From the human T2T-CHM13v2.0 reference genome, Homo sapiens: DNA of 64,000 bases. The position numbers and the translations under genes are program-made. The notes under the pieces were generated by a model. The model did no database searches, was not told the origin of the DNA, and was given only the letters and a program-made list of their open reading frames with translations. Shown piece by piece: positions 20,831 to 29,256 of the stretch. The number at the start of each line of letters is the position of its first letter. The stretch's first letter is position 1. The stretch lies in the NCBI RefSeq assembly GCF_009914755.1, contig NC_060937.1, one strand, 5' to 3'.

Positions 20831-22324
20831 GTGTTTCTTTCATCTAATTCCAGAGATTTTTGGTTTTTGTACAGGGTAAAACATGAAGCTTGACACCAGT
20901 ATGGTATGAAGTTCTCGACCCAGTTAGATGCTTGGGAAGGTGGCATTTTTGTTTGACCTATGTACATACAACTGAGAATACACTGTAGAATTTTACTAGC
21001 TTGTTTTTCAAGCAGTAGATACATTTATTTTATATACCCTCATAATATGAATATAAATTTCTAAAGCAGATAAAAGGACTAATTTATTTAAAATGAATTG
21101 AATCAATGAACCCAATCAATAAGACACAGTGTAATACTTTATTAACCACCAAAAATGGAAATCCTGGTTTATGGATGACACAGGCCTTAAGACAATTATT
21201 GGTTTTTTGTGTTCAATATTGAGGAAATCATAATTCACAACACTACCCTCAAACCCAGAAGACTAAATTAAGTTGTTCTAAAACATGAAAATAAAGTAAG
21301 AAAGAAAAGTTTAATTAAATAATTTAACTTGAAATATTACCAATAACTACTAACTGTTCACATTTCTTTTCATGAATATAAAAATCAGACAAGAAGCACT
21401 TAAGCGTAAAAGTAGCATTAGACTTTTTCTAGTGTGATATTACTATTAAATCATATATTCTGTATTTTCATATAACTATTGACTTTGTGCCATGAACTTG
21501 CTGCTAGCTTATAGATCCCTGAGACCCTTTCTCAGTATTTAATTGCATGCATGGGTTACTAAAGTTCACCTAATAGTACCATTTTGTTAGGTACAGCTAA
21601 TTTTTTTTCTACTTTTAAATATACATTAATTATAATTTTTAAAATTATGCACTGAGTACTGTGGGAGAACATACTGAGGTCTACACAAGAAAATAATAAT
21701 AATCCATATAGCAATAGTTAACATATTAGTAATTTGGAAATTAACATTGGCATAAAATACACGAGTCCATATTGTTGTTTTTTATTAAACTATAAAAATA
21801 TTTATACCTGTGAAGTTAAATTTAAAAAATACAAGTTTGTAGACCCACTAATGCACTTGATATATTATGGGGATAAAACTTCTTCCTGCTAGAGTCAAAA
21901 TGGCTAAAATGAATTCCTTTATCAGTAAATATTATTGGAAGGTGAAGAGATATTCTTTGAAAATTTGAAGAAAGAAGTATTAGGACAAGTTATTCAGTGT
22001 GGAAGGTGTTCTGTAAAGCTGGTAAAGAAAATAGATGTTTCTGAGTGCCCTTTTTCAGTTGCTGTAAAGAAAGAGAAGCCTAGGAACGTCCTTGTTTTAA
22101 TTATCATCTATATATTCATGATTCCCAAATGTGTATTTCCATTTCTGACTTCTGTGATCAAGAACAGATTATTGAGTCTGCAGCTCCCAGCATGAGCGAT
22201 GCAGGATGGGTGATTTCTGCATTTCCAACTGAGGTACCAGGTTCATCTCACTGGGGTTCATCGGACAGTGGGGGCAGGACAGTGGGTGCAGCCCACTGAG
22301 TGTGAGCCGAAGCAGGGTGAGGCA

Positions 22325-22588
22325 TCACTTCACCTGGGAAGCACAAGGGGTCAGGGAATTCCCTTTCCTAGCCAAGGGAAGGGGTGACAAACTGCACCTG
22401 GAAAATCGGGTCACTCCCACTCTAATACTGCTCTTTTCCAATGGTCTTAGCAAATGGCACACCAGGAGGTTATATCCCGCGCCTGTCTCGGAGGGTCCCA
22501 CACCCACGGAGCCTCAATCATTGCTAGCACATCAGTCTGAGATCCAACTGCAAGGCGGCAGTGAGGCTGGGGGAGGGGCTCCCACCAT
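22325..22588 (-). pseudogene. L1 ORF0 remnant in the antisense-promoter region
   Basis: ATG at 22588 reads MVGAPPPASLPPCSWISD* (stop at codon 19); downstream GVGPSE...RVGVTRFSRC matches ORF0p. Confidence 0.75.
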
Positions 22589-23165
22589 TCCTGAGGCTTG
22601 TGTAGGTAAATAAAGTGGCCAGGAAGCTAGAACTGGGCAGAGCCCACTGCAGCTCAAGGAGGCCTGCCTGCCTCTGTAGACTCCACCTCTGGGGACAGGG
22701 CATAGCCAAACAAAAGGCAGCAGAAATCTCTGAATCTCTGCAGACTTAAATGTCCCTGTCTGACAGCTTTGAAGAGAGTAGTGTTTCTCCCAGCATGCAG
22801 CTTGAGATCTGAGAATGGACAGACTGCCTCCTCAAGTGGGTCCCTGACTCCCAAGTAGCCTAACTGGGAGGCACCTCCAAGTAGGGGCAGACTGACACCT
22901 CACACGGCTGGGTACCCCTGGGAGATGAAGCTTCCAGAGGAACGATCACGCAGCAACATTTGCTGTTATATTCGCTGTTCTGCAGCCTCTGCTGCTGATA
23001 CCCAGGCAAACAGGGTCTGGAGTGGACCTCTGGCAAACTCCAGCAGACCTGCAGCTGAGGGTCTGACTGTTAGAAGGAAAACTAACAAACAGAAAGGACA
23101 TCCACACCAAAACCCCATCTGTACGTCACCATCATCAAAGACCAAAGGTAGATAAAACCACAAAG

Positions 23166-27100: not shown

Positions 27101-28006
27101 TAAAACCATAAAAACCCTAGAAGAAAACCTAGGCAATACCATTCAGGACATAGGCATGGGCAAGGACTTCATGTCTAAAACACCAAAAGCAATGGCAACA
27201 GAAGCCAAAATTGAGAAATGGGATCTAATTAAACTAAAGAGCTTCTGCAGAGCAAAAGAAACTACCATCAGAGTGAACAGGCAACTTACAGAATGGGAGA
27301 AAATTTTTGCAATCTACCCACCTGACAAAGGGCTAATATCCAGAATCTACAAAGAACTCAAACAAATTTACAAGAAAAAAACAAACAACCCCATCAACAA
27401 GTGGGTGAAGGATATGAACAGACACTTCTCAAAAGAAGACATTTATGTGGCCAACAGACACATGAAAAAATGTTCATCATCACAGAAATGCAAATCAAAA
27501 CTACAATGAGATACCATCTCACACCAGTTAGAATGGCGATCGTTAAAAAGTCAGGAAACAACAGGTGCTGGAGAGGATGTGGAGAAATAGGAACACTTTT
27601 ATACTGTTGGTGGGACTGTAAACTAGTTCAACCATTGCGGAAGACAGTGTGGCGATTCCTCAGGGATCTAGAACTAGAAATACCATTTGACCCAGCCATC
27701 CCATTGCTGGATATATACCCAAAGGATTACAAATCATGCTGCTATAAAAACACATGCACACGTATGTTTATTGTGGCACTATTCACAACAGCAAAGACTT
27801 GGAACCAATCCAAATGTCCATCAATAATAGACTGGATTAAGAAAATGTGGCGCATATACACCATGGAATACTATGCAGCCATAAAAAAGGATGAGTTCAT
27901 GTCCTGTGTAGGGGCATGGATGAAGCTGGAAACCATCATTCTCAGCAAACTATTGCAAGAACAAAAAAACAAACACTGCAGGTTCTCACTCATAGGTGGG
28001 AATTGA
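24194..28006 (+). pseudogene. L1 ORF2p (endonuclease/reverse transcriptase), disrupted
   Basis: [40 protein letters not shown] and C-terminal CWRGC...CWWDC spread over several frames by stops and frameshifts. Confidence 0.97.
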
Positions 28007-29256
28007 ACCATGAGAACACTTGGACACAGGAAGGGGAACATCACACACTGGGGCCTGTTGTGGGGTGGGGGAAGGGGAGAGGGAAAGCATTAGGAGATAC
28101 ACCTAATGTAAGTGATGAGTTAATGGGTGAAGCACTCCAACATGGCACATGTATGCATATGTAACAAACCTGCACATTGTGCACATGTACCCTAGAACTT
28201 AAAGAATAATAAAAAATAGTTGAAAATAAAAAGAAAATAGATGTTTCTAACACATCTCAACTTATTTGCTAAATTCTGTTTTAAAATATTGAAATGTAAG
28301 TACAGTTTTTTTTCCTGAGCCAATAAAGAAGCATAACAGAGAAAATACGTTTTTCAAAAAATAAATGTTTTTGGTAAAAACAATGTTTTATGGAAAACAA
28401 TACAAATATAATCTCTGCTGAAAATTAGACTGTGCAAGAATGAACCTCTTCTGTTACAACATTCGTTGGAAAATGATTACGACAATAATTTGTGGCAGAA
28501 AATGCGGAAAAGTGATATAGGATGTTATTGATACAGTTAACGTAATTAAAACAAGACTTCTTTGATGATTGTAAAAGAAATTTATGAATTGTTTGTAATA
28601 ATGCTCAGAATTTTTATGAAAATCTCTTGTACTCAGATATTCACTATTGACCTTCTGGAACTCGTGTGTTGCTAAACTCAAAGATAAGTAACACCTTTTT
28701 TAAAAACAACAACAAACAAGTGTTCCAAATTTGCTGACATTTTCTGGGCTGACAGTAGTTTCTCAGTCATATGCTGTTTAGATTAACATTTTAGAACATA
28801 GTTACTTAATCTATCCTTTTATAGCAAAAATGTTCTTTGATATTTGACAAATACCTCCTTTTTGTATGTAACTTGTACAAAGTAATGATAATTTTTAATG
28901 AATATTTAGAAACATTTCCATCAAATATTTGAGAATTTGATTTTGTAAATACATACACAGTTTTTCTGATCTCCATCTTTCAAATATGTGGAAGCAAACT
29001 TTTAATAATTATTTTAGAAGCAAAATTTCTAGGTCTTCCAAATAACTATTTTAGTGAATTTTAAATTAATCTGTTTAACATAACAAATGTAAAACATTTA
29101 AATTAGTTAAAAAGAAGACATCAAAGAACATGGAAATCAACCAACCACATTTCAACAAAACCTTTTGTATTATAGTATCAATACTTACTCATTATAGTCA
29201 ACAAATTAATTATTTCATTTGAATTAATATTTTACAAGGCAGCTGTGTCAATTACA

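What the first reader, a model, noticed from the sequence alone, without database searches (positions are those of the whole stretch)
22024..28248. L1PA5 carrying a probable 133-bp 5' transduction, from a source element lacking the YY1 site
Seen: a perfect 19-bp duplication AAAGAAAATAGATGTTTCT flanks the element (22024-22042; 28230-28248, directly after the A tail). Recognisable L1 starts only at 22176, so 133 bp of non-L1 DNA (22043-22175, first base G) lies inside the TSD. The first ~40 nt of the L1 5' UTR, including the YY1 site (CAAGATGGCC), are missing. The last 16 nt of the extra segment, AAGAACAGATTATTGA preceded by TC, look like an L1 endonuclease site/TSD. Known: YY1 positions L1 initiation, 5' transductions are much rarer than 3' ones, and a junctional G can reflect cap copying. 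Inference: a slightly 5'-truncated source L1 was transcribed from ~133 nt upstream in its flank and the whole RNA was retrotransposed, so the segment barcodes the parent locus. Alternatives are an upstream exon ending ...GAG spliced into the 5' UTR, or a template switch.
Basis: partly seen in the sequence, partly recalled or inferred. Interest (0 to 1): 0.8.

Follow-up and report, generated by a model that had tools for sequence, protein, structure and literature searches.

The report
L1 carrying a chr4-derived 5' leader
An old, decayed LINE-1 copy in a GPC5 intron was inserted together with 130 bases copied from a unique site on chromosome 4, a rare but already described kind of event, and the chromosome 4 site no longer holds a parent element.

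Summary
An exact 19-bp target-site duplication (22024-22042, 28230-28248) encloses 133 non-target bases, a near-full-length decayed L1PA element and an A-rich tail.

The extra segment is G (22043), 130 nt (22044-22173), then G (22174). The 130 nt have one other copy in the genome, a unique site at chr4:84,555,240-84,555,369 on the same strand (126 of 130 identical). L1 homology starts at 22175, position 38. All 29 related elements examined continue upstream through the YY1 box, so 37 nt are missing here.

At chr4 the segment is followed by unique DNA (TGGCTG...). There is no L1, no GT donor, and no full-length L1 within 20 kb either side. No sibling copy shares the junction.

Both units begin with an unmatched G and then an A that sits at a pyrimidine/purine step in its template. 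This fits two capped RNA 5' ends.

My estimates:
- 5' transduction from a chr4 parent allele since lost: about 0.55.
- Reverse-transcriptase jump onto a chr4 RNA: about 0.28.
- Splicing: about 0.05.

The class is in print (Law & Burns 2026, 17 cases). This locus is not in their Table S5. It is a new member of a known kind, of modest interest.

The parts
22022..22027 (+). Inferred L1 endonuclease site GT/AAAG. On the bottom strand this reads 5'-CTTT/AC, nicked just before the duplication.
   Evidence: Read from the sequence. It is close to the TT/AAAA type. It fails my strict YY/RRRR rule, but GT/AWAA and AT/AAAG are listed as cleavage sites in Law & Burns Table S5.
22024..22042 (+). Upstream copy of the 19-bp target-site duplication
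   Evidence: Exact match to 28230-28248.
22043..22043 (+). Untemplated G at the 5' end of the insert. A cap-copying signature is inferred.
   Evidence: chr4 has T here, followed by the A that starts the copied block, which is a pyrimidine/purine step. Untemplated 5' G is linked to cap copying in PMC9341517 and PMC4859970 (passages seen).
22044..22173 (+). 130-nt leader copied from chr4:84,555,240-84,555,369 (+ strand)
   Evidence: One of only two genome matches, 126 of 130 identical. The chr4 context is unique and contiguous. No Rfam family matches. No fold signal, z = +0.75.
22174..22174 (+). Orphan G between the leader and the L1. It matches neither chr4 (T) nor the L1 relatives (C).
   Evidence: In the L1 template the step is C|A, again pyrimidine/purine.
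22175..23165 (+). L1 5' UTR from position 38 onward. The first 37 nt, including the YY1 box, are absent.
   Evidence: Compared with 29 related 5' ends. The NCBI repeat mask starts at 22173 (hub note). ORF1 ATG is at 23166.
23166..24120 (+). ORF1 remnants (broken)
   Evidence: MGKKQ start. Transposase_22 at E = 2e-27 and Tnp_22_dsRBD at E = 4e-43. Frame fragments listed.
24194..28006 (+). ORF2 remnants (broken): endonuclease and reverse-transcriptase pieces
   Evidence: Exo_endo_phos at E = 7e-11 and 6e-5, RVT_1 at E = 1e-19. Six separate frame fragments.
28007..28229 (+). L1 3' UTR and a short, interrupted A-rich tail (...AATAATAAAAAATAGTTGAAAATAA)
   Evidence: Read from the sequence. The boundary between tail and duplication is ambiguous by a few A residues.
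28230..28248 (+). Downstream copy of the 19-bp target-site duplication

Best explanation
One target-primed reverse transcription event at a GT/AAAG site in a GPC5 intron inserted a single cDNA of about 6.19 kb. Its parts are an untemplated G, 130 nt of chr4 sequence, a second unmatched G, an L1PA element from position 38 to its 3' end, and an A tail. The event made a 19-bp target-site duplication.

The most likely RNA was a read-in transcript, that is, a 5' transduction.
1. An L1 RNA that began at A38 was capped and inserted on chr4 right after ...ATTATT (chr4:84,555,369). This left the orphan G at its 5' junction.
2. That parent copy lacked the YY1 box that fixes initiation at +1.
3. It was transcribed from a start 130 nt upstream in its chr4 flank, or the cDNA of a longer read-in RNA stopped there.
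4. The RNA was capped and retrotransposed to chr13.
5. The chr4 parent allele was never fixed or was later lost, so only the empty chr4 site survives.

Shown here: the anatomy, the chr4 origin, the missing 37 nt, and the absence of an L1 at chr4. Inferred: the parent allele, the two cap-derived G residues, and the role of YY1 loss.
For: - Single event: an exact 19-bp duplication encloses the leader, the L1 and the tail.
- Origin: the leader has exactly one other genomic copy, on the same strand relative to the L1, inside unique contiguous DNA.
- The L1 part is nearly complete. A read-in transcript of a competent parent requires this. A random internal template switch would seldom give it. Law & Burns report that L1s with unique 5' sequence are mostly near full-length, unlike U6/L1 chimeras (section read).
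- Both units start with an unmatched G and then an A at a pyrimidine/purine step in the template: T|A on chr4 and C|A in 29 of 29 L1 relatives. PMC9341517 uses the same reasoning for a traced 5' transduction (passages).
- A plausible parental endonuclease site, TC/AAGA, lies 14 nt before the junction on chr4. The base rate of such a site at random junctions is 0.149.
- A source locus without an L1 is the usual finding in this class: 15 of 17 source genes in Law & Burns, who also consider a lost ancestral allele.
- Divergence fits an old event. The leader differs from chr4 at 4 of 130 positions and the duplication at 0 of 19. The L1 5' UTR differs at 12 of 245 positions from the majority of its relatives, whose own median is 16.
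Against: - The defining feature of a 5' transduction is a source L1 abutting the transduced flank. It is absent at the only other copy, and there is no full-length L1 from 20 kb upstream to 20 kb downstream. The parent is therefore hypothetical.
- No other offspring carry the leader or the junction.
- No promoter evidence exists for a start at chr4:84,555,240. No TATA-like motif lies near -30 by eye, and no expression data could be consulted.
- Each of the two G residues is a single base. Either could be a substitution or ordinary junction filler.
- 5' transductions are rare: under 1% of new germline insertions (PMC9341517), and none was found by TIGER (PMC4862182).
- The empty chr13 site in other primates was not checked.
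Confidence: 0.55

Rival explanations
1. Template jump or RNA-level recombination. The L1 reverse transcriptase copied an L1 RNA that started at A38 up to its cap and added one base. It then jumped to the 3' end, or an internal site, of a chr4-derived RNA and copied 130 nt to that RNA's capped 5' end. The cDNA was then joined to the target. No chr4 parent L1 ever existed.
For: - It explains the absence of an L1 at chr4 without a lost allele.
- It explains why no siblings exist.
- The G-A pattern at both unit starts also fits two capped RNAs joined end to end.
- Sense-oriented chimeras made by template switching or ligation are well documented: 253 small-RNA/L1 chimeras in Law & Burns.
- A CpG island lies about 10.5 kb upstream on chr4 and could drive + strand transcription across the segment. 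Whether it does is untested.
Against: - Known switch partners are abundant small RNAs, and their L1 parts are usually strongly 5' truncated. Here the partner is a unique sequence with no Rfam match and no fold signal.
- The L1 is complete to position 38.
- The model needs an RNA 3' end, or a switch point, exactly at ...ATTATT. There is no terminator, no polyadenylation signal and no clear microhomology there.
- The segment lies beyond the presumed promoter of the neighbouring minus-strand gene, so it is not in that gene's pre-mRNA (weak evidence).
Confidence: 0.28
2. Splicing, in cis or in trans. A chr4 first exon was spliced to an acceptor in the L1 5' UTR before retrotransposition, as Law & Burns propose for most mRNA/L1 chimeras.
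For: - The class exists. Six of 17 reported cases end exactly at donors.
- L1PA relatives read CTCCAG|TCTACAG, so an AG lies at the junction position.
- The untemplated 5' G suggests that the leader starts at an RNA 5' end.
Against: - On chr4 the copied block is followed by TGGCTG, not GT.
- The AG of the would-be acceptor is present in the insert at 22175-22176. A spliced product would have lost it.
- The leader is one contiguous genomic block with no exon junction.
Confidence: 0.05
3. DNA-level origin. A chr4 DNA fragment was captured as filler when the 5' end of the L1 cDNA was joined to the target, or it was inserted between the duplication and the L1 in a separate later event.
For: There is no L1 at chr4. 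Short unmatched bases flank the block, as is seen at end-joining junctions.
Against: - A later insertion would have had to land exactly between the last base of the duplication and the first base of the L1.
- Filler capture of a 130-bp interchromosomal fragment is not a described outcome in any paper read here.
- The same-strand orientation and the G-A starts are not predicted by this model.
Confidence: 0.07
4. Not a joint insertion. The 133 bp is ancestral chr13 DNA and the 19-mer repeat is a coincidence.
For: None found.
Against: An exact 19-mer sits precisely at the tail end and 133 bp before the L1. The segment is 97% identical to unique chr4 DNA whose flanks have no chr13 match.
Confidence: 0.02

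Closest known systems
[quoted passage not shown] I read sections 9-11, 13, 14, 18, 20, 23 and 40-43, and the whole of Table S5.
   Same: - A duplication encloses non-L1 sequence plus the L1.
- The leader is 130 nt; theirs are roughly 75-610 nt.
- Sense orientation and a near-full-length L1 of L1PA age.
- An untemplated 5' G. Their rows list G, GGG, GGT and TGGG.
- Short untemplated bases at the leader/L1 junction in some of their rows.
- No L1 at the source locus in 15 of their 17 cases.
- One of their cases (TPK1) also starts inside the YY1 region.
   Different: - The leader here is one contiguous genomic block, not spliced exons.
- It does not end at a donor.
- I could not assign it to any annotated transcript.
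- This locus is not among the 18 rows of Table S5, and its duplication string is absent from the 6 readable supplements. mmc7.pdf could not be read.
Classical L1 5' transduction traced to a donor element, for example the macaque somatic L1 traced to a PRDM4-intron donor (PMC9341517, passages), and the RAP1GDS1/L1PA2 family with its source element (PMC13174262, section 14)
   Same: An untemplated G followed by flank sequence that starts at a pyrimidine/purine initiator. The L1 promoter is compromised and an upstream start is used.
   Different: In those cases the donor L1 is present next to the transduced flank. Here it is not. The RAP1GDS1 family has several offspring; this element has none.
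U6/L1 and other small-RNA/L1 chimeras made by template switching or RNA ligation (catalogued in PMC13174262, section 10)
   Same: A sense-oriented foreign RNA copy fused 5' of L1 sequence inside one duplication.
   Different: The partner is not a known small RNA (Rfam: nothing). The L1 part is not truncated beyond position 38.

Membership tests
LINE-1 insertion by target-primed reverse transcription | Target-site duplication of 7-20 bp flanking the insert | tested here: met
   Exact 19-mer at 22024-22042 and 28230-28248.
LINE-1 insertion by target-primed reverse transcription | A-rich tail at the 3' end and an endonuclease-type nick site (TT/AAAA-like) at the start of the duplication | tested here: met
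   The tail AATAATAAAAAATAGTTGAAAATAA abuts the duplication. The site is GT/AAAG, a degenerate variant that fails my strict YY/RRRR rule.
LINE-1 insertion by target-primed reverse transcription | ORF1 and ORF2 (endonuclease, reverse transcriptase) in order on one strand | tested here: met
   Pfam hits in order. ORF1 start MGKKQ. The frames are broken.
L1 5' transduction (read-in from the flank of a source L1) | Non-L1, non-target DNA between the upstream duplication and the L1 5' end, mapping uniquely elsewhere on the L1 sense strand | tested here: met
   130 nt map to chr4:84,555,240-84,555,369 on the + strand. These are the only two copies in the genome.
L1 5' transduction (read-in from the flank of a source L1) | At the source locus the transduced flank directly abuts a full-length L1 | tested here: not met
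   Unique DNA follows on chr4. The only L1 with high similarity within 20 kb on either side is a 2.4-kb 5'-truncated copy 13.5 kb downstream, 87.5% identical. This was tested in one human haplotype only.
L1 5' transduction (read-in from the flank of a source L1) | An orthologous empty site in outgroup species lacks both the L1 and the leader | not testable with these tools
   No primate genome is held. Only the window's own assembly could be searched.
Spliced exon/L1 chimeras (Law & Burns 2026) | The leader ends at a GT splice donor in its source gene | tested here: not met
   chr4 reads ...ATTATT|TGGCTG.
Spliced exon/L1 chimeras (Law & Burns 2026) | The leader maps to the first exon(s) of an annotated transcript | not testable with these tools
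   No annotation of chr4 is available here. The locus is absent from their Table S5, which was built by searching Gencode, RNAcentral and Rfam.
Small-RNA/L1 chimeras (U6, U3, 5S, tRNA, 28S and others) | The 5' part is a recognisable small or ribosomal RNA | tested here: not met
   In the Rfam E-value scan of the chr4 locus, the best overlapping hits are SNORA16 at E = 4.6 and sn3060 at E = 5.6, both far below their gathering scores. Fold z = +0.75.
L1PA5 subfamily | Subfamily-diagnostic positions, classically in the 3' end of ORF2 and the 3' UTR | not tested
   No repeat library or labelled consensus is available. Indirect evidence:
- Most of the 29 nearest 5' UTR relatives start GGTTCCAAGATGG...CTCCAGTCT, like the element that Law & Burns label L1PA5.
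- The inferred 5' UTR length is about 1028 nt.
- Divergence is 12 of 245 from the majority of relatives.

The most novel reading that the evidence does not exclude
The insert may be a two-generation fossil that records, in the germ line, what loss of the YY1 box does.
1. An L1 RNA started at +38, which is a C|A initiator step, and left its cap G. This produced a parent copy without the YY1 box.
2. That parent then initiated 130 nt upstream in its flank, at a T|A step, and left a second cap G.

This would be a natural example of the promoter drift that the YY1 site is thought to prevent.

That would be a cap-to-3'-end jump preserved in a genome.
Probability: 0.25. Interest if true: 0.5.

Novelty: new member of a known kind. 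Interest (0 to 1): 0.3.

Why it matters
L1 elements carrying unique 5' sequence are rare. Published estimates are under 1% of new germline insertions, and 17 cases have been catalogued in hg38. They show how an L1 with a damaged promoter can borrow an outside start site.

This copy adds a case whose leader is plain, contiguous, apparently non-genic DNA without a splice junction. That separates read-in or template-jump routes from the trans-splicing route favoured for the published cases. The leader also gives an exact address (chr4:84,555,369/70) where a parent element can be sought in other primates.

The element itself is decayed. It has no offspring and no evident function in GPC5.

Tried and rejected
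- Splicing: rejected. There is no GT after the chr4 block, and the AG of the would-be acceptor is retained in the insert.
- Small structured RNA as the leader: rejected. Rfam finds nothing, fold z = +0.75, and the genome holds only two copies.
- Leader as part of an interspersed repeat: a 901-nt chr4 query hit only itself, the chr13 block and one weak 72-nt match.
- Parent L1 further away on chr4: none from 20 kb upstream to 20 kb downstream.
- Siblings: the 32-nt junction string with up to 3 mismatches found only itself.
- Position 38 as a common L1 5' end: no. None of the 29 relatives ends there. An exact pattern for 'non-C, G, then L1 from A38' gave 8 genome hits. Two are not L1, four are L1 with L1 sequence upstream, one is this element, and only one other (L040) is an L1 preceded by non-L1 DNA.
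- chr4 block as an insertion with its own duplication: a 9-mer CCTTTTCAA (plus TGGC) lies near both ends. The empirical positional P is 0.0046. However, there is no A or T tail, no endonuclease site, and no wider similarity (local score 18 against a shuffle mean of 16.3). I treat it as probably chance.
- Gene context of the chr4 site: a Pfam cNMP_binding scan gave only two weak minus-strand exon hits, at 84.483 and 84.504 Mb. PKcGMP_CC gave none on chr4. The neighbouring gene's name (PRKG2) is recalled, not shown.
- Athanikar 2004 and Lavie 2004 are not held. What I say about YY1 and variable start sites rests on recall and on how held papers cite them.
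Full report
**Observation**

AAAGAAAATAGATGTTTCT occurs exactly at 22024-22042 and 28230-28248. The only other near match in the 64-kb window has three mismatches, and none of 100 shuffles gave three matches. 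The downstream copy follows the A-rich end of an L1. The upstream copy is followed by 133 bases that are not L1, and then by L1 5' UTR sequence.

The element is an L1:
- ORF1 begins MGKKQ at 23166.
- Pfam finds the ORF1 RNA-binding domains, two endonuclease pieces and a reverse-transcriptase piece in order on the + strand.
- The frames are broken into eight fragments, so the copy is dead.

**Where the L1 begins**

I searched the window's own assembly with 22176-22420. This returned 40 scored matches out of 4154 candidates. 29 loci besides this element's own were fetched, at 90-93% identity.

- All 29 continue upstream through a ...CCAAGATGGCC... box, and all 29 have A immediately before GTCT. 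26 of them read ...CAGCTCCA|GTCTACAG there.
- L1 homology therefore starts at 22175, not 22176. This is position 38 on the numbering I recall for L1HS.
- 37 nt are missing, including the YY1 box.
- None of the 29 relatives ends at this point.

**Origin of the extra DNA**

The 133-mer has exactly two matches in the 3.1-Gb assembly: itself, and chr4:84,555,240-84,555,369 on the + strand, which covers query bases 2-131 at 97%.

- The two copies differ at 4 of 130 positions.
- A 901-nt query centred on the chr4 block finds only itself, the chr13 block and one weak 72-nt hit. The chr4 region is therefore unique, and only the 130 nt were copied.
- The direction is chr4 to chr13. On chr4 the block is continuous with unique flanks. 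On chr13 it lies inside a duplication together with an L1.

The insert is therefore G (22043; chr4 has T), 130 nt, G (22174; chr4 has T and L1 relatives have C), then L1 from A38.

- Read-in transcription predicted an L1PA abutting the second locus. It does not. chr4 continues ...ATTATT|TGGCTGCCTTTTCAATATT..., which is unique DNA.
- I compared this L1 by BLAST with chr4 from 20 kb upstream to 20 kb downstream. This found only a 2.4-kb 5'-truncated L1 at 87.5% identity, 13.5 kb downstream, plus three old fragments at 65-70%.
- Splicing predicted GT after the hit. The bases are TG. In addition, the AG that would be the acceptor (CTCCAG|TCT in the relatives) is retained in the insert.
- Sibling copies: none. 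The leader has no third copy, and the 32-nt junction with up to three mismatches is unique.

**What the junctions say**

Both units begin the same way: an unmatched G, then an A that lies at a pyrimidine/purine step in its template. The step is T|A on chr4 and C|A in L1.

Held papers link an untemplated 5' G to copying of the cap (PMC4859970; PMC9341517; passages only). PMC9341517 uses the pair 'untemplated G plus pyrimidine/purine initiator' to argue that a 5'-transduced RNA was capped and copied to its end. Read this way, the insert holds two RNA 5' ends, one at chr4:84,555,240 and one at L1 position 38. Each signal is a single base, so this is suggestive only.

Position 38 is not a common L1 end. 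An exact pattern for this structure gave eight genome hits, and only one other (L040, chr5) is an L1 preceded by non-L1 DNA.

**Mechanism**

I favour a 5' transduction from a parent allele that no longer exists, at about 0.55.

1. An L1 RNA beginning at +38 inserted after chr4:84,555,369. A plausible nick site, TC/AAGA, lies 14 nt upstream. The base rate for such a site at random junctions is 0.149, so this is modest support.
2. Lacking the YY1 box, which by my recollection of Athanikar 2004 positions initiation at +1, that copy was transcribed from the flank.
3. The RNA was copied into chr13.
4. The parent allele was lost.

This accounts for the near-complete L1, the sense orientation, the unique non-genic leader and both G residues.

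The main rival, at about 0.28, is a reverse-transcriptase jump from the end of an L1 RNA onto a chr4 RNA. It needs no lost allele. It does need a rare RNA with an end exactly at ...ATTATT, and it contrasts with known switch chimeras, whose partners are abundant small RNAs and whose L1 parts are strongly truncated.

The leader matches no Rfam family and folds no better than shuffles. Splicing (about 0.05), DNA-level capture (about 0.07) and coincidence (about 0.02) are poorly supported.

**Context on chr4**

- A CpG island lies at 84,544,240-84,545,239, about 10 kb upstream of the block.
- Two weak cNMP-binding exon matches lie on the minus strand at 84.483 and 84.504 Mb.
- This fits a minus-strand cyclic-nucleotide-dependent kinase gene whose promoter is that island. 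From memory that gene is PRKG2; no call shows it.
- The block would then lie beyond the promoter, outside that gene's pre-mRNA. It could lie within a divergent + strand transcript. I could not test this.

**Age**

- The leader and its chr4 source differ at 4 of 130 positions, and the two duplication copies at 0 of 19.
- The L1 5' UTR piece differs at 12 of 245 positions (7 of CpG type) from the majority of its 29 relatives, whose own median is 16. This is biased low, because the relatives were selected for similarity to this copy.
- These values fit an L1PA4-5-age event but do not fix the subfamily.
- The relatives' GGTTCCAAGATGG...CTCCAGTCT start matches the element that Law & Burns label L1PA5.

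**Comparison with print**

Law & Burns (Cell Genomics 2026, PMC13174262; sections and Table S5 read) describe 17 hg38 L1 insertions with unique RNA at the 5' end.
- They are mostly near full-length and in sense orientation.
- Several have untemplated 5' G residues.
- 15 of the 17 source genes have no L1.
- The authors favour trans-splicing and also mention lost ancestral alleles.

The present locus is not in that table, and its duplication string is absent from the six readable supplements. One supplement, mmc7.pdf, could not be read. I ran two literature searches that returned results and found no other mention. This is not an exhaustive claim.

This element differs from the published set in having a contiguous, unspliced and apparently unannotated leader.

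**Verdict**

This is a new member of a known, rare class, with interest of about 0.3. The decisive data are the chr13 and chr4 orthologous sites in other primates, which these tools do not reach.

Noticed in passing
L002:1482-1497 and L002:1631-1645 (chr4:84,555,221-236 and 84,555,370-384): The chr4 source block is bracketed by an imperfect direct repeat: TGGCCATCCTTTTCAA, then AGT, upstream, and TGGCTGCCTTTTCAA immediately downstream. An exact 9-mer in 25-nt flanks of a 130-nt block has an empirical P of 0.0046. There is no tail, no endonuclease site and no wider similarity, so this is probably chance.
   Followed up: partly
window 22047, 22084, 22088, 22131 against L002 1504, 1541, 1545, 1588: At all four leader/source differences chr13 has G (chr4 has A, A, A, C). 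One of them is a CpG on chr13 (ACGTC against ACATC). Three A-to-G differences could be ordinary transitions or RNA editing of the intermediate. There are too few to tell.
   Followed up: no
L040 (chr5:67,271,963-67,271,981, minus strand): This is the only other L1 in the assembly found to begin at about position 38, after TG and non-L1 DNA. It has no sequence relation to the chr4 leader.
   Followed up: partly
L033:9001-10000 (chr4:84,544,240-84,545,239): A CpG island (GC 0.64-0.74, observed/expected CpG 0.85-0.93) lies about 10 kb upstream of the chr4 source block. Weak minus-strand cNMP-binding exon matches lie at chr4:84,483,329 and 84,504,477. Together these suggest the promoter of a minus-strand kinase gene.
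   Followed up: partly
L036:3535-5909 (chr4:84,568,904-84,571,278): A 2.4-kb 5'-truncated L1 on the + strand, 87.5% identical to the window's L1, lies 13.5 kb downstream of the chr4 source block. It is too short and too divergent to be the parent.
   Followed up: yes
window 28205-28229: The L1 tail is short and interrupted (AATAATAAAAAATAGTTGAAAATAA). The TAGTTG could be decay of the A tail or a very short 3' transduction with a second A run.
   Followed up: no
window 22205-22206: This L1 has a 2-nt deletion in the 5' UTR relative to 28 of its 29 relatives (GCAGGATGGG against GCAGAAGATGGG) and G instead of A at GTCTGCAG. Neither variant is shared with its closest relative, L004.
   Followed up: no
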